Positions 1 to 15,246 of a stretch of 20,880 nt of DNA are shown piece by piece. A model generated the notes under the pieces. That model was not told the origin of the DNA. It was given only the letters and a program-made list of their open reading frames with translations, and ran no database searches. The DNA is taken from IMG/VR virus record IMGVR_UViG_3300029080_000072. One strand, 5' to 3'. The stretch comes from a virus (Duplodnaviria; Heunggongvirae; Uroviricota; Caudoviricetes). Made by a program: the position numbers and the translations under genes. Every line of letters starts with the position of its first letter. Within the stretch, counting starts at the first letter, position 1.

Positions 1-522
1 TCCTGCGCTGGAAGACGCTGACTGAGCCGACGTCGCGGCCTGCCCGGCTGATGTGCTGGCTGCACGTGCTGAGCCTGTAGCATCAGTCGCATGGGTTGCC
101 GCCTCACGGGCTGATGTGCCGGCATCGCTGGCTGACTTCTTCGCGGCTGCCGTGTCCTGTGCCACTGCGGACGCGTTACGCGCCACCTCTTCCACCATCA
201 GTTCAAAGCGGCGCAGTGCCTCCGGACGGGCATCATCCTCCGTCATGGCACCGAGAAAATCATTCAGCGTACCCGGTTGTGAGTCTTCATACACGGTGAT
301 GGTCCCGGCATGCGATGGCGGGAAGCCTTCCACCAACAGAATAACGCTGTACTGACCGTACTCAACGTCCATGCTGTAACGCCCTGCTTCATCCGGATTT
401 TCAGATGCCACCGTGTTCACCACCACCGTGGTGCTGTTACGTTTTGCTTTCAGCTGGATTGTGCAGTTCTGTACTGGTTTACCTGCACCGTCTTTCAGTA
501 CACCTGAAATCTTTACTGCCAT
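1..522 (-). CDS. stf: Side tail fiber protein Stf, N-terminal part (C-terminus runs off the window start)
   Basis: Minus-strand translation from ATG at 522-520 gives MAVKISGVLKDGAGKPVQNCTIQLKAK..., continuing into the Ala/Ser/Thr-rich segment (...ASTSAGQAATSAQSASSSAG) with no stop before position 1; matches remembered lambda Stf N-terminus. Confidence 0.85.
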   Translation of the reverse strand, partial: MAVKISGVLKDGAGKPVQNCTIQLKAKRNSTTVVVNTVASENPDEAGRYSMDVEYGQYSVILLVEGFPPSHAGTITVYEDSQPGTLNDFLGAMTEDDARPEALRRFELMVEEVARNASAVAQDTAAAKKSASDAGTSAREAATHATDATGSARAASTSAGQAATSAQSASSSAG

Positions 523-532
523 ATTCACCCCA

Positions 533-560
533 CAAAAAAGCCCGCCTGAACCGGCGGGCT
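533..560 (-). terminator. Putative rho-independent terminator between lom remnant and stf
   Basis: GC stem gcccgcc/ggcgggc (540-559) followed on the minus strand by a T6 run (complement of 533-538). Confidence 0.5.
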
Positions 561-586
561 GTCATAACACTGTGTTACCTGGCTAA

Positions 587-1124
587 TCAGAACTTATAAC
601 CGACACCCACGATGAAACCGTCAGTGCGCCAGTCGCCACTGCCGGAGCCTTCATAAACAATATCAATGGCCACGGATTCGGTCGGGTTAAACTGCACGCC
701 AGCCCCCCACGCCAGAGACGTGTTGCTGCGGCGACCGTCATCACTTCCGGTCAGCACTTCGTGCGTTTTCCCCTTGTTGTCAGTTACGCGGAGATAATCC
801 CCGGAGAAAGTCGAAATACGGCTGTAAGCCACACCCGCCATCGCATACGCGCTGAACCATTCATTCACGCGCACAGACGGCCCCGCCATCACGCTGAACC
901 AGCGGTTACGCACGGAATCTTCATGCCAGCGGGTATCGCTGTAATGAGTCAGCTGGCGATTCTTGTCTTCTGCATAGCTGAATGACGTCACCATCCCCAG
1001 CGTGTCCGTAAACTCATAACGGTATTTCACGTTAATCCCGTTAAGATCATCGCTGCCGGGAACGTTCGTCGAGGCATGAAGATACCCCGCGCTCAGCGTG
1101 GACTGATGTTCAGACGCCCATGCA
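587..1124 (-). pseudogene. lom: lom (Ail/Lom outer membrane protein) remnant lacking start codon and most of the signal peptide
   Basis: In-frame translation gives ...SGAPAWASEHQSTLSAGYLHASTNVPGSDDLNGINVKYRYEFTDTLGMVTSF...GFIVGVGYKF, matching lambda Lom from the end of its signal peptide to the C-terminus; upstream of about 1124 the sequence switches to terminase A. Confidence 0.8.
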
Positions 1125-1380
1125 GGCGCACCGGATAACCGACACGGGCAGACTTCACCACATTCACCTCACGGATGTAGTCGCTGCCCATCGCATTCAT
1201 GATGGCCCGCTGAAAGGGCAGTGTTTCCCAGCGCCCTTCCTGGTATGCGGATTCTTTCGGGAGATAGTAATTAGCATCCGCCCATTCAACGGCAGTCTGT
1301 GGCTCCGGCCTGAACAGTGAGCGAAGCCCGGCGCGGACAAAATGCCGCAGCATGTTAACCTGACTGTTCGATATATTCAC
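1125..1380 (-). pseudogene. A: Terminase large subunit gpA, N-terminal ~85 codons only, fused out of frame to lom
   Basis: MNISNSQVNMLRHFVRAGLRSLFRPEPQTAVEWADANYYLPKESAYQEGRWETLPFQRAIMNAMGSDYIREVNVVKSARVGY matches the remembered lambda gpA N-terminus; after ARVGY the frame runs ~13 codons into out-of-frame lom sequence and stops at 1093. Confidence 0.85.
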
Positions 1381-1900
1381 TCAGCAACCCCGGTATCAGT
1401 TCATCCAGCGCGGCTGCTTTGTTCATGGCTTTGATGATATCCCGTTTCAGGAAATCAACATGTCGGTTTTCCAGTTCCGGAAAACGCCGCTGCACCGACA
1501 GGGGGATCCCGTCGAGAATACTGGCAATTTCACCTGCAATCCGCGACAGCACGAAAGAACAGAATGCGGTTTCCACCACTTCAGCGGAGTCTCTGGCATT
1601 TTTCAGCTCCTGTGCGTCGGCCTGCGCACGCGTAAGTCGATGGCGTTCGTACTCAATAGTCCCTGGCTGGAGATCTGTCTCGCTGGCCTGTCGCAGTTCT
1701 TCAACCTCCCGGCGCAGCTTTTCGTTCTCAATTTCAGCATCCCTTTCGGTATACCATTTTATGACGGCGGCAGAGTCATAAAGCACCTCATTACCCTTCC
1801 CACCGCCTCGCAGAACGGGCATTCCCTGCTCCTGCCAGTTCTGAATGGTACGGATACTCGCACCGAAAATGTCAGCCAGCTGCTTTTTGTTGACTTCCAT
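1355..1900 (-). CDS. nu1: Terminase small subunit Nu1
   Basis: 181-aa product MEVNKKQLADIFGASIRTIQNWQEQGMPVLRGGGKGNEVLYDSAAVIKWY... is near-identical to lambda Nu1; its 3' end overlaps the A start as in lambda. Confidence 0.92.
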   Translation of the reverse strand: MEVNKKQLADIFGASIRTIQNWQEQGMPVLRGGGKGNEVLYDSAAVIKWYTERDAEIENEKLRREVEELRQASETDLQPGTIEYERHRLTRAQADAQELKNARDSAEVVETAFCSFVLSRIAGEIASILDGIPLSVQRRFPELENRHVDFLKRDIIKAMNKAAALDELIPGLLSEYIEQSG

Positions 1901-1904
1901 TGTT

Positions 1905-2130
1905 CATTCCACGGACAAAAACAGAGAAAGGAAACGACAGAGGCCAAAAAGCCCGTTTTCAGCACCTGTCGCTTCCTTTCTTTTCAGAGGGTATTTTAAA
2001 TAAAAACATTAAGTTATGACGAAGAAGAACGGAAACGCCTTAAACCGGAAAATTTTCATAAATAGCGAAAACCCGCGAGGTCGCCGCCCCGTAACCTGTC
2101 GGATCGCCGGAAAGGACCCGCAAAATGATA
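1905..2130 (-). other. cos site (cosB terminase-binding R elements, cosN, cosQ side)
   Basis: Minus strand reads ggggcggcgacctcgcgggttttcgctatttatgaaaattttccggtttaaggcgtttccgttcttcttcgtcataacttaatg...; the 12-nt cohesive-end sequence GGGCGGCGACCT is the complement of 2078-2089; repeated cgtttcc R-type elements lie between it and nu1. Confidence 0.8.
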
Positions 2131-2288
2131 ATAATTATCATCTACATGTCACAACGTGCATCTACGTCATCAAACCACGTCAAATAATCAATTATGACGC
2201 AGGTATCGTATTAATTGATCTGCATCAACTTAACGTAAAAACAACTTCAGACAATACAAATCAGCGACACTGAATACGGGGCAACCTC

Positions 2289-2483
2289 ATGTCAACTAAG
2301 AACAGAACCCGCAGAACAACAACCCGCAACATCCGCTTTCCTAACCAAATGATTGAACAAATTAACATCGCTCTTGAGCAAAAAGGGTCTGGGAATTTCT
2401 CAGCCTGGGTCATTGAAGCCTGCCGTCGGAGACTAACGTCAGAAAAGAGAGCATATACATCAATCCAAAGTGATGATGAATAA
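2289..2483 (+). CDS. Small conserved ORF near the lambda right end (hypothetical)
   Basis: 64-aa ORF MSTKNRTRRTTTRNIRFPNQMIEQINIALEQKGSGNFSAWVIEACRRRL...; the DNA resembles the lambda right-end region as remembered; function unknown. Confidence 0.4.
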   Translation: MSTKNRTRRTTTRNIRFPNQMIEQINIALEQKGSGNFSAWVIEACRRRLTSEKRAYTSIQSDDE

Positions 2484-2848
2484 ACATCCCGGTTTCTTCC
2501 ACCATCGCACCGGAAAAGCGACTATGAGGGTAACCCTGCGTCTGTCAGCACAGTAAAACCCGGTGTGCATCGTTTTTGATTATTCCCGCACACTCACGCA
2601 GAAGGAATTCCCCGTCGGGCTACGGTCATGGTTAATGCGGGAATACGGCGACGATACAGCGCAGCTAAAAGGGTAATGGACAGATAGAGCGGTTTATTTC
2701 ATTCCACAGGATTCTGAGTGCCCCCCTCCTCCAATAGGCTGAGCATCCACCTATATAGTTTTAGTTTTAATTTTCATCAATCCATTTAACTATCGTTTAA
2801 TTGTTGTCACATAGGATTCTGCCGTTTTTAACAATGCAGGATAATAAG

Positions 2849-3142
2849 ATGAAAAAAATGTTGTTTTCTGCCGCTCTGGCAATGCTTATTACAGGATGTG
2901 CTCAACAGACGTTTACTGTTGGAAACAAACCGACAGCAGTAACACCAAAGGAAACCATCACCCATCATTTCTTCGTTTCGGGAATTGGACAGGAGAAAAC
3001 TGTTGATGCAGCCAAAATTTGTGGCGGCGCAGAAAATGTTGTTAAAACAGAAACCCAGCAAACATTCGTAAATGGATTGCTCGGTTTTATTACTTTAGGC
3101 ATTTATACTCCGCTGGAAGCGCGGGTGTATTGCTCACAATAA
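2849..3142 (+). CDS. bor: Bor lipoprotein (serum-resistance lipoprotein)
   Basis: MKKMLFSAALAMLITGCAQQTFTV...GIYTPLEARVYCSQ has a lipobox (LITGC) and matches remembered lambda Bor; AGGA precedes the ATG at 2849; the tracked ORF start at 2801 is an upstream extension. Confidence 0.9.
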   Translation: MKKMLFSAALAMLITGCAQQTFTVGNKPTAVTPKETITHHFFVSGIGQEKTVDAAKICGGAENVVKTETQQTFVNGLLGFITLGIYTPLEARVYCSQ

Positions 3143-3152
3143 TTGCATGAGT

Positions 3153-3170
3153 TGCCCATCGACATGGGCA
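3153..3170. terminator. Hairpin between convergent bor and Rz (possible bidirectional terminator)
   Basis: tgcccat-cgac-atgggca inverted repeat; no strong T-tract on either side. Confidence 0.3.
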
Positions 3171-3173
3171 GCT

Positions 3174-3635
3174 CTATCTGCACTGCTCATTAATATACTT
3201 CTGGGTTCCTTCCAGTTGTTTTTGCATAGTGATCAGCCTCTCTCTGAGGGTGAAATAATCCCGTTCAGCGGTGTCTGCCAGTCGGGGGGAGGCTGCATTA
3301 TCCACGCCGGAGGCGGTGGTGGCTTCACGCACTGACTGACAGACTGCTTTGATGTGCAACCGACGACGACCAGCGGCAACACCATCACGCAGAGCATCAT
3401 TTTCAGCTTTCGCATTAGCTAACTCCTTCGTGTATTTTTCATCCAGTGCAGCAACATCACGCTGGCGCATCTGCATGTCAGTAATTGCCGCGTTCGCCAG
3501 CTTCAGTTCTCTGGCATTTTTGTCGCGCTGGGCTTTGTAGGTAATGGCGTTATCACGGTAATGATTAACAGCCCATGACAGGCAGACGATGATGCAGATA
3601 ACCAGAGCGGAGATAATCGCGGTTACTCTGTTCAT
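3174..3635 (-). CDS. Rz: Rz i-spanin
   Basis: [45 protein letters not shown]...QKYINEQCR is near-identical to lambda Rz; its ATG (3635-3633) overlaps the R stop. Confidence 0.9.
3233..3415 (-). CDS. Rz1: Rz1 o-spanin lipoprotein, embedded in Rz in another frame
   Basis: [60 protein letters not shown]: lipobox and proline-rich segment, matches lambda Rz1. Confidence 0.85.
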
Positions 3636-4129
3636 TGCTGACCCCACAAACAGATTTCACGCTCAATCTCACGACGAGTCATGAGACCTTTCCATTGCTT
3701 ACCGCCAGCATATGTCCAGCGACGTAGCTGATCACATGCGCCTTTGATATCGCCCTGGTTTATTTTGCGAAGAAGCGTCGATGTTCTGAAATTGCCAGCG
3801 CCCACGTTGTAAACGAACGAGTAAAGAGCGCCGCGCGTTGTTTCCGGTATATCAACTTTTATGTACGGGTTAATTTGTCTGGCGACCGTGGCAAGGTCTT
3901 TATTCAGGAGGGCTTTGCATTCTGCTTTGGTATACGTTTTACCGAGCATGATGTCTTTTCCTGTATGCCCGTGACATACAGTCCATACACCAACAATATC
4001 TTTGTATGGTATGTAGCTGACACCTTCCAGACCATCGTTACCACTTGGGCCAGTGATTAACACTGATGCTATAGCAATTGCTCCGCCACCAATAGCAGCA
4101 GCAACGGCTTTTCGTAATGATGGAGGCAT
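3632..4129 (-). CDS. R: SAR endolysin, phage-21/DLP12 RrrD type (T4-lysozyme-like)
   Basis: [59 protein letters not shown]... has an N-terminal Gly/Ala-rich signal-anchor-release segment followed by a lysozyme-like body; matches remembered R21/RrrD. Confidence 0.9.
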
Positions 4130-4344
4130 TATTCACCTCTCGCAGCCTTGCGCTTATCTTCTTTAATCTTGAAATAAAGGTTTGTCAGGTACGTCAGCAG
4201 GCCAAATACCAGGCTACCCAGCACACCTATTGCTGCCCACTGTGAGGGCGTGACTTTATCGAGCAGCTGTAAAAACCAGTAACCGGCACTACCTGCTGAG
4301 GTGCCATAGGCGACACCCGTTGTTAACTTATCCATGGATTTCAT
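4129..4344 (-). CDS. S: Class II holin (pinholin, S21/EssD type) with dual-start motif MKSM
   Basis: [71 protein letters not shown]; ATGs at 4344 and 4335 (Met1/Met4); GAGGTGGGG Shine-Dalgarno upstream; the tracked ORF start at 4389 is an extension. Confidence 0.85.
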
Positions 4345-4389
4345 AACCCCACCTCGCAGACAAAGCGGGTGTAAATTGAGGGAATACAA

Positions 4390-4932
4390 CGTATCGCAAA
4401 AAAGCAGAAACGTAACAGACTCGGAGTCAGTGAATAACTCAGGTATTGAGTTATCAGCTAATATCGAGACTCAAAAAATGGAAAAACCAGCTCGACGGCG
4501 GGTTTAAGCTGTGTGACGAAGTAACCACTCTTAACAGCATAACCAATTTTTTACGTACGTAAACCACTGAATGATATTTATGAGAATGCTACCGAGTGTT
4601 CAAAACACCACCACAAATACATAAGAAAACCTCAACAAATAACCAATAAATAATTTCAGACGTTATTTTTAGTTGATTTAAATTAAACTGCCGAATTATA
4701 GAACCTCCATAAATAACAACCATTAATATAAATTAGCTAATAGGTTTATTTTTGTTCAAATAAGAGCCATAAATAGGTTTCGATAGAAAAAGTTCAGATA
4801 AAAATAGAGATCTACTTCACAAATTAAATGAGAAACTAAAACTTACATCTTGAAATAATCACATTGATTAGATGAATATTTATCGCGCAGTGACATCATT
4901 TTTTAATAATAGTTCAAAAAAAAGGGCTCACG
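4390..4932 (+). promoter_or_regulatory. AT-rich ~540-bp upstream region of the porin gene (promoter/regulatory, exact elements not resolved)
   Basis: Very AT-rich non-coding stretch directly upstream of the porin ATG; AAGGG precedes the start. Confidence 0.4.
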
Positions 4933-6015
4933 ATGAAAAAATTAACAGTGGCAATTTCTGCTGTAGCTGCATCAGTACTGATGGCGATGTCTGCTCAGGC
5001 AGCTGAAATTTATAATAAAGACAGTAACAAGCTGGATCTATATGGGAAAGTTAATGCCAAGCACTACTTCTCCTCTAATGATGCAGATGATGGTGATACT
5101 ACTTATGCCCGTCTTGGCTTCAAAGGTGAAACCCAAATCAACGATCAACTGACTGGTTTCGGTCAGTGGGAATATGAATTCAAAGGCAACCGCGCTGAAT
5201 CTCAAGGCTCCTCCAAAGACAAAACCCGTCTTGCATTTGCAGGCCTGAAATTCGGGGACTACGGCTCAATCGATTACGGCCGTAACTACGGTGTAGCATA
5301 TGACATCGGTGCGTGGACTGACGTTCTGCCAGAATTCGGTGGCGATACCTGGACCCAAACAGATGTGTTCATGACTGGTCGCACCACTGGTGTTGCAACT
5401 TATCGTAACAACGACTTCTTTGGTCTGGTTGATGGTCTGAACTTTGCTGCTCAGTATCAGGGTAAAAATGACCGCACTGACGTAACTGAAGCTAATGGTG
5501 ATGGTTTCGGTTTCTCCACTACTTATGAGTATGAAGGATTCGGTGTAGGTGCAACCTATGCTAAATCTGACCGCACTAATAATCAGGTTATCTACGGTAA
5601 CAACAGCCTGAATGCATCTGGTCAAAATGCTGAAGTATGGGCAGCTGGTCTGAAATATGATGCGAACAACATCTATCTGGCTACCACCTATTCTGAAACC
5701 CAGAACATGACTGTTTTTGGTAATAACCATATTGCCAACAAAGCACAAAACTTCGAAGTAGTTGCACAATATCAGTTCGACTTCGGTCTGCGTCCGTCCG
5801 TTGCTTACCTGCAATCTAAAGGAAAAGACTTGGGTGCGTGGGGTGATCAGGACCTGGTTGAATATATTGATGTAGGTGCAACCTATTACTTCAACAAAAA
5901 TATGTCCACTTTTGTTGATTACAAAATCAACCTGATTGATAAGAGCGATTTCACGAAAGCATCTGGCGTTGCTACCGATGATATCGTTGCTGTAGGTATG
6001 GTTTACCAGTTCTAA
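4933..6015 (+). CDS. nmpC: OmpC/OmpF-family general porin (phage-borne NmpC/Lc-like), apparently intact
   Basis: 360 aa with signal peptide [23 protein letters not shown], typical porin beta-strand pattern and C-terminal ...VGMVYQF; matches remembered NmpC/Lc. Confidence 0.9.
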
Positions 6016-6133
6016 TTTGATTACTAAAAGATATGTTGCGGGAGGCTTTGCCTCCCCAACATATAAGTGGCTCCCTCAAGCCACTTCCTTTAGGAGCACA
6101 ACCTTGCTTCTAACTATATAAACCTTCTGTTAT

Positions 6134-6164
6134 ATATTACCCTTTATTTTTGGGGGCGTTGCAA
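6134..6164 (-). promoter_or_regulatory. Candidate late promoter downstream of Q (-35 TTGCAA, -10 TAATAT on minus strand)
   Basis: On the minus strand ttgcaa, a 19-nt spacer, then taatat, about 40-70 bp downstream of the Q stop; further hairpins at 6040-6057 and 6060-6081 could be the Q-modified terminator. Pattern-based only. Confidence 0.3.
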
Positions 6165-6176
6165 CGCCCCATTTTT
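6153..6176 (+). terminator. Rho-independent terminator downstream of porin
   Basis: ggggcgttgcaacgcccc hairpin followed by attttt. Confidence 0.6.
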
Positions 6177-6203
6177 AATAATTTTTAGTAAACAATTGGC
6201 ATA

Positions 6204-6587
6204 TTAATTAGAGTTATTAACAACGATATCCATCTCTAACCGGATATCTAATGCCATTAACATCCCTTCAATTATGCCCTCAGCCTTCTGTAACCTTTTC
6301 CCGATATAACCATCAGAGCAGCAATGCTTACCTGCCAGTGACATGAATGTCATACCGACTACATAATAATCTACTAATAAATCGTGCAAATCGCTGTTGT
6401 TCTTTTTCAGACGGGCCATGCACCCGCAAATAATCATCGCGTCATCGTCACAACATTGCGGGCGAGATTTTACTTTTGAAGTAATTAATCCCTTAAAACC
6501 GGCGGCAATGGACGACCAGGTCACATCTTCATGATTATTAGCCGCCCACGCTCCCCAACGCTCAAGAACCATCTGAATATCACGCAT
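6204..6587 (-). CDS. Q: Late antiterminator Q (phage-82/DLP12 QuuD type)
   Basis: [62 protein letters not shown]... matches remembered QuuD (127 aa); ATG at 6587 with upstream GGAG; the tracked 6602 start is TTG. Confidence 0.85.
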
Positions 6588-6809
6588 CAACTTACTCCAC
6601 AAAAATCAGACCAGAACGCCAATTACAAGCAAAAATCAACAAAACAGTATTAGTTGATTGTTATCTCTGACTTCATACTCCTGCTCCTGTCAGGGTTTTG
6701 GCGTAATTCTTCAGTATTCGGTAATCGGTCAAAACAGAACCGGGGAAACGATATAAGCGCAGATGCCCCCAGCGGTGGCGAAGAAGTTCTGCCATATAAA
6801 ACTCAAACA

Positions 6810-7172
6810 TCATTCATTCCCCATTTCGGTGATGGTCAGTTCCAGCCTCCCACCTTTGGTAACAGGCATCTTCACAACGCGGTAATCAACGACCTGAGCA
6901 TCATCCAGCCAGAAACCTGCTTTGGTGAGTGCGTCAAAAGCGGCTTTTTGCAGATTATCCAGGTCACGGCGACGGCGATCCGGCATGTGGCACTCAATAC
7001 GGATTTTCACTGGCATAGCCAGGCCGATATCCAGCATTGCGTTTTTAATGATTCGGGTGACGTTATCGCGGTATGCCTGCCCTTCTGCGCTGATGTGCGT
7101 GCGCCCGCGATTATGGCGGTAATAGCGATTATTGCTCGGAGGCCAGGGTAATGTGATGCTGTAGGTATTCAC
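6810..7172 (-). CDS. rusA: Holliday junction resolvase RusA
   Basis: [120 protein letters not shown] (120 aa). Confidence 0.92.
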
Positions 7173-7459
7173 GCCTTAATAACCCCCTCTTTCAGCCAGA
7201 TAACCTGTGTTCTCGCCATACCTTCCAGCGCGCATTCTTTTGCATATGCAGCATCGACAAAATGTGTGCGGCGGTCGATTTCGTCGTGGCAGGCAGAACA
7301 TGCAATGGTGGCAATCAGGTCTGGCGGTTTGATACCGGTACCGCACAATCCAGCCAGCCGGATATGTGCCAGTACAGACGTTTCAGAATTGCCATTACAT
7401 ACGCCAGGGATTCTTACCTGGCATTCCCGACCACGCGCTGCTTTTCTCAAATCAGCCAT
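7169..7459 (-). CDS. ybcO: YbcO-family protein (DUF1364, nin-region putative nuclease)
   Basis: [64 protein letters not shown]...; ATG at 7459 preceded by AGGAGG; matches remembered DLP12 YbcO. Confidence 0.85.
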
Positions 7460-7622
7460 GATTCCTCCTTGCTGCCAGTCGCAACCATTTTTTATCAACC
7501 AGGCTGGCGGTATATCCGAGCAGAGTTGGTATTTCGGATGGCTTCAGCTCAGGTTTACGCTTACGACGATTTGGTACTTTGTAGATGTGTCCGTTCATGA
7601 CACGAATAAGCGGTGTAGCCAT
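7452..7622 (-). CDS. ninE: NinE
   Basis: [56 protein letters not shown]; ATG at 7622 overlaps the ybcN stop. Confidence 0.85.
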   Translation of the reverse strand: MATPLIRVMNGHIYKVPNRRKRKPELKPSEIPTLLGYTASLVDKKWLRLAARRNHG

Positions 7623-8077
7623 TACGCCTCCTGCTTGTCGCGCAGCAGCTGGAACTCGCAGCGCTGCGGAATAGTCAGGTGGCAACCAATATTCATCGCC
7701 CAGGCTTCAACCTTACACAGGAAGACATACATCTCTCCGGTATCAAGATCGGAGGTATGGCGTAACGACTGGATAGTGGTGATATCACCGGTTACGACAT
7801 CAACCAGTTCTTTGGTTTCATAACCGAGATAAGTGTGTTTCAGAGCATCCTTCACCCACTCTGGCGTAGCGAAAGTCTTACCCCGGCTGATGAGGTATTC
7901 GCTGATTTCGGTGTACCACATGTGGCTTAAGCTATTTTGAGACAGGCTGCGCTTATCGCGCCATGGCTTCAGTACCATGCGGAAGCACTTGCCGTCCTCC
8001 AGATAAGGCTGGAGCTGCTGACCGATAGCGGTGAAGTTACCGCGATGAAGTTTGATGCCGTCTTGTGGGAGGTTCAC
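7622..8077 (-). CDS. ybcN: YbcN-family protein (DLP12 ybcN homolog)
   Basis: [62 protein letters not shown]... (151 aa) matches remembered YbcN. Confidence 0.85.
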
Positions 8078-8198
8078 GCTTCACCTCCGCAGAGGTCAAA
8101 CGCTGGATGCAAAAAATCGCAGGTGCATTTCTGCATCTGTGGCGGGAGAAGAGAGTTTAGATTGTATGTGCGCATAAACGTCCCCGTTTAGCGCAGAA

Positions 8199-8227
8199 GT
8201 CACCGGAGTTGTTCAGGCTCCGGTGAC
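8199..8227. other. Strong 10-bp-stem hairpin in the spacer between the NADAR gene and ybcN
   Basis: gtcaccggag ... ctccggtgac perfect inverted repeat with ~9-nt loop; no adjacent U-tract. Confidence 0.4.
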
Positions 8228-8337
8228 ATGATTATGGCTGGTTGATTATAGAAAATCAAAAACCTTTTATGGCAACAAAAAAACGCCGAGGGAGGTACGC
8301 CAGTTAATTTATGGAAGAAAATGCCCCAGATGGAACG

Positions 8338-8967
8338 CTAAAACAAGGATAAACTTTGCCCTGCTCCAGGCGTTGGCTTTACAAATGTTACATCTTTAAT
8401 TCTTTCGCCTAGGAGAAAAAATTTGTCCAAAGATAGCGATGGTATTGTTGCAAACCCATCAGCCCCCTTTTTCCTAGCAACCCCTCTCACGTCCATGAGA
8501 ATTCGCCCTAATACGTTCATACCATAATAGTTACCTTCTGGGTCTTTACTGGCACCCCAGAATTGGTCCTTCTCTGAGTGTTCCACGATGAAATGGTCGC
8601 CTGTACTGTCTAACAGCGCAAAGAACGTATCCCAGTTCTGGCATAATTTTACGCATACACACCACTTCATAATCGAAACTCGATTCTTATCCCATCCTGC
8701 GCGAGTTTTGGATTCAAACGATCTTGCGGTCTGCTTGGCTTCATAGGGGTTTCCTTGAGTAATGATGGCCTTTTGTATATCCGGATAGTCTGGATATCGG
8801 CATGCTTGGTAAAGGATTTCACTTGATTGAATAGGCAACCCATTGATTAACAATGGATATCCTTTAGCCATGTTGGAAAGCCCCCCCCATTTTTCGGTGG
8901 TTTTCCTGAAGGAAACTGTGTTCTGTAGCGGATATAATCTATAGCTCATACCACTCATTATACCCAT
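8338..8967 (-). CDS. NADAR (YbiA/DUF1768-like) domain protein, predicted N-glycosidic/ADP-ribosyl hydrolase
   Basis: Motif pattern GGLSNM ... IQSSEILYQACRY ... IVEHSEKDQFWGA ... G.N.LGRILMDVR parallels E. coli YbiA (FSNF ... TSEHYFQAQKF ... VEHTENDAYWGDG ... GKNRLGYLLMELR); start ambiguous among ATGs at 8967, 8958, 8949, all overlapping the upstream gene. Confidence 0.7.
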   Translation of the reverse strand: MGIMSGMSYRLYPLQNTVSFRKTTEKWGGLSNMAKGYPLLINGLPIQSSEILYQACRYPDYPDIQKAIITQGNPYEAKQTARSFESKTRAGWDKNRVSIMKWCVCVKLCQNWDTFFALLDSTGDHFIVEHSEKDQFWGASKDPEGNYYGMNVLGRILMDVRGVARKKGADGFATIPSLSLDKFFLLGERIKDVTFVKPTPGAGQSLSLF

Positions 8968-9970
8968 TCCGCTTCATTAGTGGATACCAGCAGTCCAATG
9001 CGGGAGCACCTGTTGGTTCATAATCTCCCCACCAAAAAGCCAGCGGCACATTATTCGGGCAATTTCGATAAGTAAATGTTGTTCCCCCAAAACCCAAACC
9101 GTCAAAAGTAGAAAAACCTAGAGGTTTGAGCACCTCACTAGGGGTTTTCCTGTGCAGCAAGATATTAAAGCCGACTTTAGTAAGGATAGATTCGAAACGA
9201 TCCCTTGAGGCTTCATTTCTAAAACTATCAGAAGAGGCATATCCATCTCTGAATACGCCTTTGTAAAGCTCACACTCCTCGAATTTCTCGGGAGTATCTA
9301 CACTATATTTCCTTGGCCAGAAAACACCTGATTGAGCAGAACGACTTTTTCGGTTTTCAACCTCACGCATACCACCATTCTTCACGTGTACAAAAATGTT
9401 TCTATCCTTAAAAATATATTCTAATCGTCTTTTTATATTATAGTCAGATAACGTATGAGATGAAAAAAAATATACATTGAATTTAATATCTCTTAAATTA
9501 AATTTTAAAACAAAATTACTTATCGATTTGATGGCCTTTTCTCCTGAAAACGACACATCATCAATATATACAAATGTATCAAATTTATTTACTTCATCTT
9601 GAGTTGATGATTCAGTAACGATGTTAAATTTGATCCCTACTGTTTCATAAAGAGATTTAAGCAATTCCTTCTGACTAGAACCTTTTTTTTGAATATCTAA
9701 AAAACCTGCATATCTGAAGAATTTCGCGTTCTTTTCACTTCTTGCAATGGCTTTTATTTTTCGTTGATATTGACTTTCGGATAGGTAACCTGCATTAAGT
9801 AGATAAAGCGTTTCATCTAAGATAAATCGTCTATCCTCCACTGCAAATTGCTTAATCCATTTGCTGACATGTTCAGAGTTCATACCTTCAGCCGGAGGAT
9901 ATTTATAATCGCTCAACTTTTCAGCAATTTTATTGATTACTTTTTCACCAGATAAAATATTCGAGGACAT
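8939..9970 (-). CDS. Unassigned 343-aa protein (AT-rich cargo gene); weak PRTase-like DD motif; function unknown
   Basis: Uninterrupted ORF with AGGA 8 nt upstream of the ATG; FVYIDDVSFSGEKA resembles a type-I phosphoribosyltransferase PRPP motif; Trp/Gly-rich C-terminus; no family I recognise. Confidence 0.7.
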   Translation of the reverse strand: MSSNILSGEKVINKIAEKLSDYKYPPAEGMNSEHVSKWIKQFAVEDRRFILDETLYLLNAGYLSESQYQRKIKAIARSEKNAKFFRYAGFLDIQKKGSSQKELLKSLYETVGIKFNIVTESSTQDEVNKFDTFVYIDDVSFSGEKAIKSISNFVLKFNLRDIKFNVYFFSSHTLSDYNIKRRLEYIFKDRNIFVHVKNGGMREVENRKSRSAQSGVFWPRKYSVDTPEKFEECELYKGVFRDGYASSDSFRNEASRDRFESILTKVGFNILLHRKTPSEVLKPLGFSTFDGLGFGGTTFTYRNCPNNVPLAFWWGDYEPTGAPALDCWYPLMKRNGYNEWYEL

Positions 9971-10181: not shown

Positions 10182-10766
10182 TTAAGAATAAACATCAGTA
10201 ACTCGGGCCGGGCTTAATGCTACGGTTGGCGAATCACACTTGTTTCCCCATACGTCGAAACCGTGGGAGGATTTACGCGCAAAGAGCTCAATACGTGGAA
10301 GATTACCCAGCAACCGAACCAGCATTTCACGCACGCAGTCTGGTTTACGTGAGTGCTCATGTCGCGGCGAGGTGTAGTGCTGGATGATCGAGGCGTCCTG
10401 CTGTGGTGCCCGCTTACCCTTTACCGCGAAAAGACAATCTTCACGGTTCGCCCGGATCAGGTGTCCCATTCCCATCGCCGATTTGTCAGTTTGCTTCGGG
10501 TAGGTTTTATCCCAAGTGAAACCTTTCATTGTGATCAGGCGAAATCCCCAGGCATCGACGACTTTCATCGCCTCGAACGTTTGAGTTGGCAACCACCACA
10601 TCGCCAGCTGGCAGCTTTCTGCAACCCGCTCCCTTACTGGCAGCCAGCAGATATCCTGCACCGTCATAACCAAGTATTTATGCCCGGTGCCACGCTTACC
10701 AGAATTGCATTTATCCTCGTACGTCCAGGGCGGATCCGCTTAGATCAACGTGTATTTCTTGTTCAT
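10182..10766 (-). pseudogene. Dam-like N6-adenine DNA methyltransferase (DPPW motif) interrupted by an in-frame TAA at codon 9
   Basis: Minus strand from ATG 10766 reads MNKKYTLI-TAA-ADPPWTYEDKCNSGKRGTGHKYLVMTVQDICWLP...; the stop (10742-10740) sits where intact homologs, as I remember them, have Tyr in LIYADPPW. Confidence 0.75.
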
Positions 10767-10768
10767 GG

Positions 10769-11455
10769 TTAAATAAATCCGACTGCTTTACGCGCTTTGT
10801 ATTGCTCAAGCAAAAGCTGAGCGGGAGTCGGCCCGGGCACGTGGCGCGGAGCCGAGATTTGTTTTCTGACCGGAGGGATTGGTTTGCCCTCACTGACGCG
10901 CTTCTCCCACATGTCCAGCAGGTCACCAGCCTCGCATGCCAGCTCGCCATGCGTTAACTGGCGCTCAATGCTACGGTGGCGCAGTTCGACGCAGATGTGG
11001 TACATGACAGGCTGTGACCACGGGAAATGCTCGCTGGAAGTGAATTCGAAGGAACGATTACGCCAATCCCAGTATTCGGTTATGACTTGGTCAACAGTGA
11101 TACCTAACGCCCCGCCACTCTGCTTACACCACGCTACGAACTGGCCGGGCGACGGCAGGAATGGTCGCTCCTGTCGGCGGGCCACGCGCATTCCGGCGTT
11201 AACCTGCTCCATAGTGGTAATTCCATTTTCACGGAAAGCCATAACCCACTGACGGCGGATTTCGTTCAGCTCGTTCTGGTCGCGGTTCGCGAGGCTTGCC
11301 GGAAATGTCGCAAGCAGCTGGCTGAACACACCGTTGATGATCTGCGCCACCTGCTGCACCTGCGGCTTTTCGTCGTATTGTTCCGGCATGTTGTTGGCGA
11401 TTCGACGCATCTGCTCACGGTCAAAGTTAATCATCTGCGCGGCAATATTTTTCAT
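10769..11455 (-). CDS. P: Replication protein P (helicase loader); lambda-like N-terminal half, divergent C-terminal half
   Basis: MKNIAAQMINFDREQMRRIANNMPEQYDEKPQVQQVAQIINGVFSQLLATFPASLANRDQNE... near-identical to lambda P over ~110 aa. Confidence 0.9.
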   Translation of the reverse strand: MKNIAAQMINFDREQMRRIANNMPEQYDEKPQVQQVAQIINGVFSQLLATFPASLANRDQNELNEIRRQWVMAFRENGITTMEQVNAGMRVARRQERPFLPSPGQFVAWCKQSGGALGITVDQVITEYWDWRNRSFEFTSSEHFPWSQPVMYHICVELRHRSIERQLTHGELACEAGDLLDMWEKRVSEGKPIPPVRKQISAPRHVPGPTPAQLLLEQYKARKAVGFI

Positions 11456-12381
11456 AGCTCCACCCCGTAAATCCAGTCAGTGTTTGTCAGGTCGAGTTTT
11501 GGTTTGCTGGCAGTCACACCAGCCTGTTGCTTGTTACGGTTGATTTCGAGTTGGGTCCACTTGTCGCGGAGTTTGGCCGGACTTAGCACGTTACCGGACC
11601 AGAAGTTGTCCTGGCATGCCCAGCGGAACAGCACGCACATGTCGCGGTGGTTACGTCCGTCACGTTCACGCATCAGGCGGATATCGTTAGCCCACCCTGC
11701 AAAATTCGGTTTTCTGGCTGATGGCGCGATGGTCTTCACCATGTCAAACATCCACTCTGCGGCGGTCAGGTCTTCTGCTGTCCCCCACCTGCTGCCGCTC
11801 TGAATTGCAGCATCTGGTTTCTCCACAGGAAGATCGTTTTCTGGTTGGTCAGAGGATTCGCCAGAATTCTCGGACGAAAAAGGTTTTATATTGTCTTTTG
11901 TTAGTTTGTCTTTTGTGTTTACCTGATTCGGGTAAACGCCTTTACCTGATTTAGGTAAACTTTTCTTACCTGATTCAGGTAAATTTACCTCTTTCAGGTA
12001 AACTTTATTTTTCTTACCCGATTCGGGTAATGTTGACCATTCACTGACCACATTATTGATGCCGATATTCCGCCCGCTCTGAATAAAAATCCCACGCTTT
12101 ACCAGAACACTTTTTGCAGCAGAACACTTGTGCGGCAATATCCCGGTTAATTCGGAAAGTTGCTCGTTGCTAACCCAATCCAGTTTTTTATTAAAGCCAT
12201 ATGTTTTGCGCATGACAGCCAGAAAGACCAGAAGCTGGTGCTGTGTTAATCCGGCCAGCATCACAGCTTCCAGCAACTCATTTGCAATGCGCGTATAACC
12301 ATCATCGAGATCTGCCACGCGCCGCTCCTTTTGTGCCACATCCGGCACAGGAAAATTGAATATCTCAGCAGTGTTTGCCAT
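11452..12381 (-). CDS. O: Replication initiator protein O
   Basis: C-terminal half matches lambda O (...YSSENSGESSDQPENDL...AAIQSGS.WGTAEDLTAAEWMFDMVKTIAPSARKPNFAGWANDIRLMRERDGRNHRDMCVLFRWACQDNFWSGNVLSPAKLRDKWTQLEINRNKQQAGVTASKPKLDLTNTDWIYGV); start taken as MANTAEIFNF (ATG 12381, GGAGG upstream), lambda O being MTNTAKILNF. Confidence 0.9.
   Translation of the reverse strand: MANTAEIFNFPVPDVAQKERRVADLDDGYTRIANELLEAVMLAGLTQHQLLVFLAVMRKTYGFNKKLDWVSNEQLSELTGILPHKCSAAKSVLVKRGIFIQSGRNIGINNVVSEWSTLPESGKKNKVYLKEVNLPESGKKSLPKSGKGVYPNQVNTKDKLTKDNIKPFSSENSGESSDQPENDLPVEKPDAAIQSGSRWGTAEDLTAAEWMFDMVKTIAPSARKPNFAGWANDIRLMRERDGRNHRDMCVLFRWACQDNFWSGNVLSPAKLRDKWTQLEINRNKQQAGVTASKPKLDLTNTDWIYGVEL
11919..12031. 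repeat. Replication origin iterons (five ~19-bp repeats TTACCTGATTCGGGTAAAC-like) inside O, flanked by an AT-rich segment (11881-11918)
   Basis: Repeats at 11919-11937, 11942-11960, 11966-11984, 11985-12003, 12014-12030; each is internally palindromic (TTACC...GGTAA); the arrangement follows lambda ori. Confidence 0.75.
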
Positions 12382-12467
12382 AATTCCTCCCGCAATGAGT
12401 GTGTTACGATTTGCACCTGAAAGTCGGTTCTGTTCCCGCAGACCGACTTTCGCCATTTTTGAACCTG

Positions 12468-13007
12468 TCATATTGCCCCCAGCATGGTGGTGACCATCGC
12501 CATCAATGGACCAGCCAGATCCGGGTCCACTCGAAACATCGACACAATGCCTTCACTCATCTCCTTCAGTTTCTGGTGGCGTGGTGCGTTGAGAATGACC
12601 GCCTGCTTTGCCTCACAGAGTTCCTTTTCCATTTCAGCCAGCCGAGCCATGAAGCTATCCTGCTCAACCAGGTGGCCGCGATATTCCAGCGGTAGTACCG
12701 CCAGAATTGCCGGGGTCAGTTCACGCACGTTATTTCGGTATTTTTCAGAATCGAATTTGTTATCGAGGAAGCGGAACAGCTTCTGGCGTGCACGGCTGAC
12801 ATCATCAGGGAAATCGATAGTGCCGCCGCCCTGCTCCCGATACTCATTCACAATGAGTGTGGCAACGACATCCTGATTATCTTCAGCCGACCAGGCGCGG
12901 ACGGCATCACGGATTTTTTCGTGGCCTGGCACCTGTTTTGTTTGAGAACGATTTATCACCGCAGTCGGGCTAAATCCGCTAGTCTGTTGGTATGTAAGTG
13001 GTTGCAT
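12468..13007 (-). CDS. cII-position protein, 179 aa, possibly YdaT-family
   Basis: Good Shine-Dalgarno (AAGGAG) and position between cro and O; not lambda CII-like; the LTPAILAVLPLEYR segment resembles what I recall of YdaT-type proteins (weak memory). Confidence 0.5.
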   Translation of the reverse strand: MQPLTYQQTSGFSPTAVINRSQTKQVPGHEKIRDAVRAWSAEDNQDVVATLIVNEYREQGGGTIDFPDDVSRARQKLFRFLDNKFDSEKYRNNVRELTPAILAVLPLEYRGHLVEQDSFMARLAEMEKELCEAKQAVILNAPRHQKLKEMSEGIVSMFRVDPDLAGPLMAMVTTMLGAI

Positions 13008-13076
13008 AATTGACTCCTTTAGTTTGAATTGACTGTTAAGTTGATTGCTTATTGTTAAAGAGCGTGAAATGGAAAT

Positions 13077-13307
13077 TTAAGCTGCGTTCTTTTCGGTGTG
13101 TGGAAACAACTTCGGAAGATCCGGGCGAATCTGGTATGCCTTCACTACTCCACCAGTAGCCGTAACAATGCTGCCGACATGTTCAGGGGATACCTTTGCT
13201 TTGTTGTGAAGCCACTTATAGACGGCCTGCTGTGAAACTTCGCAGGCAGCGCCCAGTTTCTTTTGTGAACCAACGATATTGATCGCTGTTTTGATAGCTG
13301 GATTCAT
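13077..13307 (-). CDS. cro: Cro-like HTH repressor
   Basis: 76 aa, divergent from cI across an operator region; GGAGG 5 nt upstream; GAACEVSQQAVYKW is a helix-turn-helix-like segment. Confidence 0.8.
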   Translation of the reverse strand: MNPAIKTAINIVGSQKKLGAACEVSQQAVYKWLHNKAKVSPEHVGSIVTATGGVVKAYQIRPDLPKLFPHTEKNAA

Positions 13308-13411
13308 AACAACCTCCGTGGTTAATTTGAATCAAGATTAAAACTATGGTTGTTTTTAGTCAACAACCATTTTCGTTTGATGGAATAAAACCTTGGTTGT
13401 ACATTTGGACT
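13308..13411. promoter_or_regulatory. OR region: divergent promoters and operator palindrome ATGGTTGTT-N7-AACAACCAT (13346-13370)
   Basis: Perfect 9-bp inverted arms; further GGTTGT half-site at ~13395; the same AACAAC half-site recurs at OL. Confidence 0.6.
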
Positions 13412-14101
13412 ATGAAAACAACACTCTCAGAAAGACTTAAAGAAGCCAGATTAGCGCGAGGCCTTACACAAAAGGCGCTTGGGGATTTGGTCGGGGTTAG
13501 CCAAGCTGCTATTCAGAAAATCGAAACAGGGAAAGCTAACCAAACAACTAAAATCGTGGAGATCGCGAACGCTTTGGGTGTGCGCGCAGAATGGTTATCT
13601 TCTGGCGTTGGAAATATGTCAGACAGTACAGTGCAACCAATACAATCAACTGTCAGCCATTCCAAATACTTTAAGATTGACGTTCTTGATATAGAAGTGA
13701 GTGCCGGGCCGGGAGTCATCAACCGTGAATTTGTAGAAGTTCTACGCTCGGTTGAGTACTCGTTTGACGATGCTCGTCACATGTTCGATGGCAGGAAGGC
13801 GGAAAATATCCGCATCATTAACGTGCGTGGTGACAGCATGTCAGGAACGATCGAACCAGGTGATCTGCTGTTCGTTGATATCACGGTTAAATCTTTCGAC
13901 GGTGATGGTATCTATGCGTTTCTGTACGACGACACAGCCCATGTAAAGCGCCTGCAAATGATGAAAGATAAGCTACTGGTTATCTCTGATAACAAGAGCT
14001 ACTCACCGTGGGACCCGATCGAGAAAGACGAGATGAACCGGGTGTTCATTTTCGGGAAGGTTATTGGCAGTATGCCGCAGACGTATAGGAAACACGGATA
14101 A
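13412..14101 (+). CDS. cI: CI repressor (XRE-type HTH + LexA/S24-like autocleavage domain)
   Basis: MKTTLSERLKEARLARGLTQKALGDLVGVSQAAIQKIETGK... then a C-terminal S24-like region; the tracked ORF start at 13346 lies inside the operator, so it could alternatively be a leaderless start. Confidence 0.9.
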   Translation: MKTTLSERLKEARLARGLTQKALGDLVGVSQAAIQKIETGKANQTTKIVEIANALGVRAEWLSSGVGNMSDSTVQPIQSTVSHSKYFKIDVLDIEVSAGPGVINREFVEVLRSVEYSFDDARHMFDGRKAENIRIINVRGDSMSGTIEPGDLLFVDITVKSFDGDGIYAFLYDDTAHVKRLQMMKDKLLVISDNKSYSPWDPIEKDEMNRVFIFGKVIGSMPQTYRKHG

Positions 14102-14180
14102 TCAGCTGCGTGCTGATGAGGCTTTTGGGTAATGCGCTGAAAGAATTCTTTATAAAAATAACATTACGGGAAAGGCAAAA

Positions 14181-14450
14181 ATGAGTGATAAAAAACTTAT
14201 AAAAAAATCAAATAACTGTGTAGATGCATATGCTGATGCATTTGGATATTCATCTTTTGGGGAAGATGACGATCGCTTAGGCTCCATATCTTTCTTTCAG
14301 CATGTTACAGAATGGGGCGCTGATGGTAGTAATGACACTGAAAACGTAAAGTACAACATTGCAACAATTCGCATGACGGAAGATTTAATGCTTAAACTCG
14401 CTGACTTTATTCGCGATCAGCATGATAGAGCTAAAACCAATAAGTCATAA
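14181..14450 (+). CDS. Hypothetical acidic 89-aa protein, first gene of cI-linked cassette
   Basis: ORF with GGGAAAGG Shine-Dalgarno; AT-rich; no family recognised. Confidence 0.55.
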   Translation: MSDKKLIKKSNNCVDAYADAFGYSSFGEDDDRLGSISFFQHVTEWGADGSNDTENVKYNIATIRMTEDLMLKLADFIRDQHDRAKTNKS

Positions 14451-14458
14451 TATTAACA

Positions 14459-14899: not shown

Positions 14900-14976
14900 T
14901 GCTTAAGAAACTGCTCGCCACCTTGCATTACGCAAAGCGATTTTTCATTCCCTATTACCCTTTCTTATCCATCTAA

Positions 14977-15004
14977 ACCCGGCCCCAGTGCCGGGTTTTC
15001 TTTT
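14977..15004 (+). terminator. Rho-independent terminator ending the cI operon
   Basis: acccggc-cccagt-gccgggt hairpin followed by tttcttttg. Confidence 0.65.
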
Positions 15005-15099
15005 GCCTCCCCTCATCACACAAACCGTTCAAAAAACCACCACGACCTCGCTTCAGTTATCGCTATGCGATGCAAGTCACAAAATAAATCCATCTTAAA

Positions 15100-15175
15100 T
15101 ACAACCAGTTATATCTAAAACAACCAATAAAACAACTTTTGTTGTTGCCGATAAAACAACTATAGTTTTAAATGA
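15100..15175 (+). promoter_or_regulatory. OL/PL region: AACAAC-repeat operators incl. palindrome AACAACTTTTGTTGTT (15131-15146); candidate PL (-35 TTGCCG 15145-15150, -10 TTAAAT 15168-15173)
   Basis: Several AACAAC half-sites matching the OR palindrome; promoter hexamers with 17-nt spacer. Confidence 0.5.
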
Positions 15176-15246
15176 ATTCATCGCAACAACACAACGATAC
15201 GGCAATCACCTGATTCACCGTTGCGATGACCGCTTAGATCCGCAGC

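What the first reader, a model, noticed from the sequence alone, without database searches (positions are those of the whole stretch)
587..1380. Deletion scar fusing terminase A codon ~85 to the interior of lom: all head and tail genes lost
The A reading frame matches lambda gpA through ...KSARVGY and then continues into sequence that, in another frame, encodes Lom from the end of its signal peptide (SGAPAWASEHQ...). The junction lies at about 1124/1125. In lambda, A and lom are separated by roughly 17 kb (W through J), so this single junction removes the whole morphogenetic block. cos, nu1 and stf are retained. The prophage therefore cannot make virions itself but keeps intact immunity, replication, recombination and lysis modules.
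Basis: partly seen in the sequence, partly recalled or inferred. Interest (0 to 1): 0.5.

Follow-up and report, generated by a model that had tools for sequence, protein, structure and literature searches.

The report
Prophage deletion scar at terminase hotspot
A lambda-like prophage in a small E. coli clone has lost all of its head and tail genes in one roughly 17-18 kb deletion; that is ordinary prophage decay, except that the break in the terminase gene falls on the same three bases where at least 20 other, independent prophage deletions also begin.

Summary
On the minus strand the window reads cos, nu1, then 82 codons of terminase gene A. These are joined out of frame to lom from its nucleotide 50-52 onward, and stf follows.

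The closest undeleted relative (strain W284) has A through J and a full lom between the same flanks. The loss is about 17.3 kb there, or about 18 kb in lambda coordinates. No reciprocal junction exists in 5,426 complete E. coli genomes. The scar occurs only in one clone (E94, E92, one draft assembly and the window).

The element is a 30.3-kb prophage integrated at icd. By annotation its immunity, replication, recombination and lysis genes, cos and nu1 are all full length. It resembles the nohD-A' remnant of the K-12 DLP12 prophage.

Unexpectedly, the A-side breakpoint (...GGTTAT|) is shared by at least 20 other junctions with different partners: B, E, L, J, H, lom, stf and others. They sit on different A alleles, and every mapped partner has TAT or TAC at the joint. 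This is a recurrent deletion breakpoint whose cause I could not establish.

The parts
1..522 (-). 5' part of the side tail fibre gene stf. The gene runs off the left edge of the window and is a full 3,306-nt CDS in E94.
   Evidence: E94 annotation. 97-99.5% identity to mEp460 and W284 stf.
534..559 (-). Terminator hairpin between lom and stf; retained.
   Evidence: Corresponds to the rho-independent terminator annotated in mEp460. The sequence was read.
587..1134 (-). lom remnant: codons 18-199 plus the stop codon. It lacks its start codon and the first 17 codons, which include most of the signal peptide.
   Evidence: Translation. PHROG Lom profile positions 18-199 of 199, E = 6e-99. PGAP pseudogene flagged 'missing N-terminus'.
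1135..1137 (-). Crossover: a 3-bp microhomology, TAT in phage orientation. It is A codon 82 (lambda 954-956) and lom nt 50-52.
   Evidence: Three-way alignments with lambda, mEp460 and W284.
1138..1380 (-). Terminase large subunit remnant A': codons 1-81, with codon 82 lying in the crossover. The open frame continues to 1093 as a 95-aa A'::out-of-frame-lom product.
   Evidence: ORF list. 98.3% identity to lambda 1-956. PGAP pseudogene flagged 'missing C-terminus'.
1355..1900 (-). nu1 (nohD-like), terminase small subunit; full length at 181 aa.
   Evidence: ORF list. PHROG terminase small subunit, E = 6.5e-76, full length.
1901..2130 (-). cos region. The cosN 12-mer GGGCGGCGACCT lies at 2078-2089. 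The cosB R sites are intact apart from one substitution in R2 and a 1-nt deletion nearby. There is one substitution left of cosN.
   Evidence: Global alignment to lambda 48292-48502 plus 1-260.

Best explanation
The window is the late, early and integration part of a lambdoid prophage sitting in the icd gene (the e14 site). The prophage is in reverse orientation and 30.3 kb long.

One illegitimate deletion joined terminase gene A just after codon 82 to lom nucleotide 50-52 through a 3-bp TAT microhomology. It removed the last 87% of A, every head and tail gene from W to J, and the lom start and signal peptide. No other DNA was inserted. The loss is about 17.3 kb compared with the nearest undeleted relative.

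The consequences follow from the missing genes. Without large terminase, portal, capsid or tail the element cannot package DNA or build particles. The 95-aa A' product and the start-less lom are pseudogenes. By sequence the repressor, replication, Red recombination, Q, lysis, cos, nu1 and int-xis functions remain.

The event is recent and clonal.

The break on the A side is not random. The top strand ends at ...GGTTAT (lambda 956) in at least 20 other independent deletions, whose partners lie anywhere downstream. Each has TAT or TAC at the joint.

I infer that a DNA 3' end forms repeatedly at this spot and is joined or primed on 2-7 nt of terminal microhomology, either by end joining or by template switching. 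The deletion and its recurrence are shown. What creates the end at that spot is not known.
For: Breakpoints and the 3-bp microhomology.

Undeleted relative: W284 has the same stf protein and a full lom (99.5% identity over 1,137 nt), and A through J lie between the flanks.

Prophage boundaries: the icd 3' end is duplicated as a 217-nt repeat at 95% identity, with the copies 30,344 bp apart.

Distribution:
- The junction is in 2 of 5,426 complete genomes.
- It is also in one draft assembly.
- The window differs from E94/E92 by 5 SNPs.

Not an inversion or translocation:
- The reciprocal junction is absent from all 5,426 genomes.
- E94 has a single copy of the A 5' segment.

Gene integrity.

Recurrence of the A breakpoint:
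- A protein census found about 13 different fusion tails starting right after ...KSARVGY, against about 25 classes spread over the next 83 residues.
- DNA confirmation covers 16 distinct junctions.
- Every mapped partner has TAT or TAC at the joint, with 2-7 nt of microhomology (3 nt in most) whose right edge is always lambda 955-957.
- All 120 sampled intact alleles carry TAT at codon 82.
- In IMG/VR, 6 loci break at nt 246. About 10 break elsewhere across 1,680 nt in 120 intact-type loci.
- The left arms of junction-bearing loci are polyphyletic. Each is 0-6 nt from a different intact allele.
Against: The deletion could have been built in two or more steps; the sequence cannot tell. W284 differs from the window by 3.6% on the nu1-Q arm, so it is a relative and not the parent.

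A 3-bp microhomology is close to what chance gives at any junction.

For the hotspot:
- No nuclease site, significant hairpin (z = -0.5 and -1.1) or mosaic-boundary peak marks nt 246.
- The proposed 4-nt cleavage overhang TTAT does not fit the guanine preference of quinolone-trapped gyrase (PMC6379681).
- Some junction classes may derive from others by short slippage between TTAT/TAY repeats, so the number of truly independent events is lower than the number of classes.
- The census covers only A' fragments up to about 165 aa.
Confidence: 0.88

Rival explanations
1. The junction is an assembly artefact, or it is the product of an inversion or translocation between two different prophages, so the head and tail genes survive elsewhere.
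For: E. coli genomes carry several lom copies. E94 has three places matching the junction probe, which in principle could mislead an assembler or drive rearrangements.
Against: The same junction is in two closed chromosomes, a separate draft assembly, and the window, which differs from them by 5 SNPs. A 3-bp overlap cannot cause repeat collapse. The element is bounded by icd and an icd fragment. No genome holds the reciprocal lom-5'::A-3' joint. E94 has only one copy of the A 5' segment.
Confidence: 0.02
2. The shared A endpoint reflects common descent: one old truncation at codon 82, as in a DLP12-type remnant, was inherited or copied by recombination, and only the distal partner changed later.
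For: DLP12-type loci in strains LR-45 and E14 have A' of exactly 82 codons. Prophages exchange the nu1-A' region by homologous recombination. Some classes share a partner site with different A endpoints, which fits secondary slippage.
Against: The left arms are polyphyletic. Each junction-bearing arm is 0-6 nt from a different intact allele and up to 16 nt from the other junction-bearing arms. Homologous exchange cannot create a new joint exactly at the old one. The window's post-junction sequence is native lom from the first base. Each class is rare and confined to a clone: 1, 2 and 6 genomes.
Confidence: 0.07
3. Selection, not mutation, fixes the endpoint. Only truncations that stop inside the gpA Walker A box (KSARVGYS) while keeping the Nu1-binding N-terminus are tolerated or useful, for example as a Nu1-A' decoy against incoming lambda-like phages.
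For: The endpoint lies inside the ATP-binding motif of gpA (my own knowledge of the lambda terminase literature). nu1 and cos are always kept intact next to A'. Roughly 10 of 14 classifiable joints are in frame with the partner gene, more than the one in three or so expected (frames worked out by reading the sequences, and the expectation is my own rough estimate, not a tool result).
Against: Selection on a protein cannot explain single-nucleotide precision. Only one class stops one codon earlier. Neighbouring GC-rich triplets that would give the same protein outcome are not used. Out-of-frame tails of 6-21 residues, including the window's, are accepted. Truncations at residues 46, 56, 90, 96, 102-105 and 120 also persist, and the K-12 type is present in hundreds of genomes.
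Confidence: 0.08
4. The element is a helper-dependent, satellite-like mobile element rather than a decaying prophage. It keeps cos, nu1, replication, lysis and integration genes so that a lambda-like helper can package it.
For: It has cos, nu1, int-xis, O-P and lysis genes and no capsid genes. Satellites with lambda-like cos do exist nearby, such as the insert in W284.
Against: The architecture is a full lambdoid genome minus one block, collinear with W284. It is confined to one clone. At 30.3 kb it is about 62% of lambda length, below the roughly 75-78% lower limit for stable lambda packaging, and a dimer exceeds the upper limit (from established lambda biology, not tested here). No capsid-redirection or helper-interference genes were seen. 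E94 has no second lambda-type A gene.
Confidence: 0.03

Closest known systems
DLP12 cryptic prophage of E. coli K-12 (nohD, the terminase A pseudogene aaaD, and the tfaD pseudogene)
   Same: It has a lambda-type cos and intact small-terminase gene, followed by a short 5' remnant of A fused directly to distal tail-fibre-region DNA, with all head and tail genes gone. PGAP gives the window's late region DLP12 gene names: quuD, essD, rrrD, rzpD, ylcI, nohD.
   Different: In K-12, A' is 309 nt and is fused to tfa, so lom and stf are also lost. DLP12 sits at another chromosomal site, has lost most early functions, and this junction type is present in hundreds of genomes. The window's scar is at nt 246, keeps lom' and a full stf, keeps all early modules, and is limited to one clone.
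DLP12-type loci of strains LR-45 and E14
   Same: The A endpoint (...GGTTAY|) is identical to the nucleotide. nu1 and cos are intact upstream.
   Different: The partners are the 3' end of stf (LR-45) and another tail-fibre gene (E14). These are different prophage sites and different A alleles, found in 1 and 6 genomes.
Undeleted icd prophage of strain W284
   Same: It has the same icd site and the same distal arm: mcrBC-like genes, pin', an acyltransferase, tfa' and an identical Stf protein. Its lom is 99.5% identical, and it has a lambda-type nu1-A with a DLP12-like late region.
   Different: It still has A through J. Its capsid gene E is split by an ~11-kb satellite. Its early region is different (ybcK, emrE side). 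The nu1-to-Q arm is only 96.4% identical.
Microhomology-mediated illegitimate deletion in E. coli (RecA-independent slippage or alternative end joining)
   Same: There are two collinear flanks, a 3-bp shared sequence, no inserted DNA, no IS or recombinase site, and no reciprocal product.
   Different: Such events are normally scattered. Here one endpoint is reused to the nucleotide by many independent events, while the other endpoint ranges over about 21 kb.

Membership tests
Defective (cryptic) lambdoid prophage | Integrated at a bacterial attachment site with a flanking duplication | tested here: met
   int lies next to icd. A 217-nt icd 3' duplicate (95.4% identity) lies 30,344 bp away.
Defective (cryptic) lambdoid prophage | Lambdoid gene order (int-xis, recombination, repressor-cro, O-P, nin, Q, lysis, cos, nu1-A, ..., lom-stf) | tested here: met
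   PGAP annotation of E94, PHROG hits, and collinearity with lambda and W284.
Defective (cryptic) lambdoid prophage | Loss of genes essential for particle formation | tested here: met
   A is truncated at codon 82, and W through J are absent between window 1134 and 1138.
Defective (cryptic) lambdoid prophage | No infectious particles released on induction | not testable with these tools
   Requires induction and plaque or electron-microscopy assays.
Microhomology-mediated illegitimate deletion | Both flanks collinear with an undeleted relative, and nothing inserted at the joint | tested here: met
   Window 1-1137 corresponds to W284 locus L008 9933-11069, and window 1135-8261 to L008 39391-46528.
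Microhomology-mediated illegitimate deletion | A few shared bases at the crossover | tested here: met
   TAT, 3 bp. With a one-base slip the similarity extends to GTCG..TAT.CC.
Microhomology-mediated illegitimate deletion | No reciprocal product, so the event is a deletion and not an inversion | tested here: met
   0 of 5,426 genomes carry the reciprocal joint.
IS-mediated or site-specific-recombinase-mediated deletion | An IS end, or a recombinase recognition site shared by both partners at the joint | tested here: not met
   No extra sequence is present at the joint. The partner sites share only TAY. The invertase gene (pin) is a pseudogene, and invertase crossover sites recalled from memory do not match.
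Phage satellite (PICI-like, cos-packaged) | A conserved small element lacking most virion genes and carrying helper-exploitation genes, recurring in many genomes | tested here: not met
   The element is a full lambdoid genome minus one block. It is found in one clone only. No such genes were seen.
Phage satellite (PICI-like, cos-packaged) | Mobilised by a helper phage | not testable with these tools
   A size of 30.3 kb argues against lambda-head packaging; this is inference only.

The most novel reading that the evidence does not exclude
Lambda nt 954-956 (the Tyr82 codon inside the Walker A box of terminase gene A) is a true mutational hotspot. Under this reading a defined DNA end or stalled 3' terminus forms there repeatedly in lambda-type prophages and is rejoined on 2-7 nt of microhomology anywhere downstream. 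Loss of the whole virion block would then be a favoured, one-directional route of prophage inactivation rather than random decay. The window's scar would be one instance among at least 20.
Probability: 0.4. Interest if true: 0.65.

Novelty: new member of a known kind. Interest (0 to 1): 0.4.

Why it matters
The scar by itself only documents how one E. coli clone disarmed a prophage while keeping its regulatory, recombination and lysis genes and its cargo: a porin, Iss/Bor and restriction genes. It is useful as a dated, clean example with a known undeleted relative.

The wider point is the reuse of one exact breakpoint by many independent deletions on different terminase alleles. If a specific process creates a DNA end there, prophage domestication in E. 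coli is partly channelled. The same process may then explain why nu1-plus-A' remnants such as DLP12 are so common. This can be tested directly in lambda lysogens.

Tried and rejected
1. Inversion or translocation. A synthetic reciprocal joint found no genome with the required 80% or more coverage.

2. Shared junction with DLP12. K-12 breaks at A nt 308-309 and joins tfa. LR-45 and E14 share only the A endpoint.

3. A hairpin as the cause. Lambda 920-1040 folds no better than shuffled sequence on either strand (z = -0.46 and -1.14).

4. Gyrase trapped by quinolones. A 4-nt cleavage overhang of TTAT lacks the guanine that quinolone-induced scission prefers (PMC6379681).

5. Ideas checked by eye and dropped for lack of a match:
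- a cosN-like half site (only GGTTA is shared, and the other cosN half site lacks it);
- Chi (no closer than 5-6 of 8 bases);
- Ter;
- the DnaA box;
- invertase gix/cix sites;
- XerCD dif;
- type IIS and type III restriction sites;
- the topoisomerase I rule of C at position -4;
- IS target preferences.

6. TTAT as a sufficient signal. TTAT also ends at A nt 270, 281, 308 and 344, with few or no junctions at those positions.

7. A mosaic-boundary peak in intact alleles at nt 246. None was seen.

8. Right-retained junctions (X::A nt 247 onward). None were found in IMG/VR.

9. P0014's tail as an IS end. It is gene L.

10. Literature searches for aaaD/DLP12 and for terminase with microhomology found nothing relevant.

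11. The scan of one genome per species returned only intact alleles, mostly lambda DNA contamination in unrelated taxa.

Full report
**What is in the window**

The window is almost identical to a stretch of the chromosomes of bovine E. coli strains E94 and E92 (99.976%, 5 differences in 20,880 nt). It runs from inside the side tail fibre gene stf to the end of an integrase gene next to icd. The phage is in reverse orientation.

On the minus strand, from left to right, lie:
- stf (1-522), a terminator, and a lom remnant (587-1134);
- a terminase A remnant (to 1380), nu1 (1355-1900) and cos (cosN at 2078-2089);
- the bor/iss gene on the plus strand, then Rz, R and S;
- a porin gene (plus strand), Q, the nin region, P, O, a cII-like gene and cro.

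On the plus strand follow the repressor, two unknown ORFs, kil, gam, bet, exo, cargo genes, xis and int.

In E94 the element is bounded by icd and a 217-nt duplicate of the icd 3' end, 30,344 bp apart. Beyond stf it carries tfa', an acyltransferase, a decayed pin gene and an McrBC-like pair.

**Checking the observation**

The A' frame (1093-1380) gives gpA residues 1-82, ending KSARVGY, followed by 13 residues read out of frame from lom. The lom frame gives SGAPAWASEHQ... through to the natural stop. It matches the Lom profile from position 18 of 199.

Base-by-base alignment with lambda A, mEp460 lom and both W284 genes gives these positions:
- The last A-only base is window 1138.
- The first lom-only base is window 1134.
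- The shared TAT is window 1135-1137, which is lambda 954-956 and lom nt 50-52.

Its coordinate is about 11 nt off, and the codon is 82.

**Is it a deletion?**

A search with the distal arm found strain W284. W284 has the same icd-side cargo, an identical Stf protein and a full lom. Between lom and a lambda-type A-nu1 it has J, I, K, L, M, H, T, G, V, U, Z, FII, FI, E, D, C, B and W.

The window aligns to W284 as two blocks that meet at the TAT. They are 99.5% and 96.4% identical. The missing interval is 28.3 kb in W284, including an ~11-kb satellite inserted in capsid gene E. Without the satellite that is about 17.3 kb. In lambda coordinates it is about 18.06 kb.

Several results exclude an artefact, inversion or translocation:
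- A synthetic reciprocal joint (lom 5' end plus A from nt 247) is absent from all 5,426 complete genomes.
- E94 has only one copy of this A segment.
- The junction is in two closed genomes, in one draft assembly (GCA_001912085.1), and in the window, which is a slightly different haplotype.

Only 2 of 5,426 complete genomes have the junction. The event is recent and clonal.

**What remains**

- cosN is identical to lambda. cosB has one substitution in R2.
- Nu1 is full length.
- The repressor, Cro, the cII-like protein, O, P and Q give full-length profile matches.
- PGAP annotates S, R, Rz, Gam, Bet, Exo, Xis and Int as intact.
- Not intact: tfa and pin (both also defective in W284, so older than the deletion) and an MT-A70 methyltransferase with an internal stop.
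- No N-type antiterminator was recognised in the two ORFs at the N position.

Whether these modules work is not shown.

At 30.3 kb the element is about 62% of lambda length. From established lambda packaging limits it should not be stably packaged, even by a helper.

**The unexpected part: a recurrent breakpoint**

Hits to the junction probe in other genomes stopped at the same A position. In strains LR-45 (a DLP12-site locus) and E14, A' is exactly 82 codons. It is fused to the 3' end of stf in LR-45 and to another fibre gene in E14.

A protein search with the 95-aa ORF returned 102 short gpA N-terminal proteins. Their sequences show about 13 different fusion tails that begin right after KSARVGY. 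The tails read into E (two sites), J, portal B, L, lom (a second site), stf and others, plus one tail into H that starts one codon earlier. About 25 other classes are spread over residues 83-165. Smaller clusters sit at residues 46, 56, 90, 96, 102-105 and 120.

DNA from the encoding contigs, IMG/VR and metagenomes confirms 16 distinct joints. All read ...GTGT(C/T)GGTTA(T/C)| followed by partner DNA. The partners map to lambda 3469, 6990, 7047, 13981, 17569, 21850 and elsewhere.

- Every mapped partner has TAT or TAC immediately before its own breakpoint. The microhomology is 2-7 nt (3 nt in most joints), and its right edge is always at lambda 955-957.
- All 120 sampled intact alleles have TAT. 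In TAC joints the C therefore comes from the partner.
- Each junction class is rare: 1, 2 and 6 complete genomes.
- The nu1-A' arms that carry the joints are polyphyletic. Each is 0-6 nt from a different intact allele.
- In IMG/VR, 6 loci break at nt 246.
- No joints that keep the right side of A were found.

These are therefore independent events sharing one endpoint.

**Mechanism**

It is shown that this is a single clean joint with 3-bp microhomology, no inserted DNA and no reciprocal product.

I infer an illegitimate, microhomology-guided joining. A top-strand 3' end at ...GGTTAT pairs by its last 2-7 bases with a TAY site downstream and is ligated or extended. A mismatched final T is trimmed when the partner has TAC.

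It is not known why an end forms there. The following were checked and found no support:
- a hairpin;
- quinolone-trapped gyrase;
- a cosN-like nick;
- Chi;
- Ter;
- invertase or Xer sites;
- IS targets;
- TTAT as a sufficient signal;
- a recombination-boundary peak in intact alleles.

Selection on the truncated protein is a rival, because the site lies in the gpA Walker A box and many joints are in frame. It does not explain single-base precision. Some classes may be secondary slippage products of others; for example, the same stf site is joined to A nt 138, 246 and 308. The number of classes therefore overstates the number of primary events.

**Comparison with known systems**

The closest known thing is the nohD-A'-tfa' remnant of the K-12 DLP12 prophage. 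The architecture is the same but the breakpoints differ (A nt 309, partner tfa). DLP12 is much more decayed and is widespread.

The window's element passes the sequence tests for a defective lambdoid prophage and for a microhomology deletion. It fails the tests for an IS-mediated deletion, a recombinase-mediated deletion and a satellite.

I found no paper describing the shared breakpoint. The library does not cover subscription journals.

**Verdict**

The finding is correct and, by itself, ordinary: a new, clonal member of a well-known kind. Interest is raised moderately by the recurrent breakpoint, which is well supported as an observation but unexplained.

Noticed in passing
L008 (W284, NZ_CP162987.1) about 22991-33966: An ~11-kb satellite-like element is inserted in the major capsid gene E of the related prophage. 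It carries an integrase, AlpA, a TIR-domain protein, a primase, SSB, its own major capsid and decoration genes, and a DUF262 plus HEPN pair. It also carries a cos-like stretch 90.7% identical to window 1863-2121.
   Followed up: partly
A gene nt 138, 168-171, 270, 288, 306-315, 360-363 (lambda 848-1073); proteins P0003-P0013, P0053-P0057, P0088, P0089: There are smaller clusters of independent A truncation endpoints, again with several different partners. The K-12 DLP12 type (nt 308-309) is one of them. The same stf site and the same tfa-region site are each joined to three different A positions.
   Followed up: partly
window 4933-6015 (+): An intact 360-aa porin gene (nmpC/ompC-like) lies between Q and the lysis genes. 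The K-12 DLP12 copy is known to be interrupted by IS5 (from memory).
   Followed up: no
window 8338-9970 (-), 10182-10766 (-), 17649-18713 (+): Cargo in the nin and recombination regions: a NADAR protein paired with a phosphoribosyltransferase-like protein, an MT-A70 methyltransferase with an internal stop, and a DGQHR-domain protein next to exo. These are possible defence or counter-defence genes.
   Followed up: no
window 14181-14450 and 14459-14899 (+): Two ORFs of unknown function (PHROGs 4231 and 3556) occupy the position of lambda N. No N-type antiterminator was recognised.
   Followed up: partly
L002 (E94) 10479-16133, left of the window: The distal prophage arm carries an McrBC-like restriction pair, a decayed pin invertase gene, an acyltransferase and a truncated tfa. 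All are shared with W284 and about 20 other genomes at the icd site.
   Followed up: partly
window 1940-2000 (cosB): Compared with lambda there is one substitution in the R2 Nu1-binding site and a 1-nt deletion between R2 and R1. cosN and R3 are identical, and there is one substitution just left of cosN.
   Followed up: partly
L150-L181 (species-representative genome contigs): Exact lambda A sequence appears in short or ~48.5-kb low-coverage contigs of unrelated taxa (Shewanella, Pseudomonas, Paenibacillus, Bradyrhizobium and others). This is almost certainly lambda control-DNA contamination of those assemblies.
   Followed up: no
window 2566, 4805, 15044, 15148, 18383: These are the five single-base differences between the window and E94/E92, which are identical to each other over 40.2 kb. 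The window therefore comes from a third, closely related source.
   Followed up: yes
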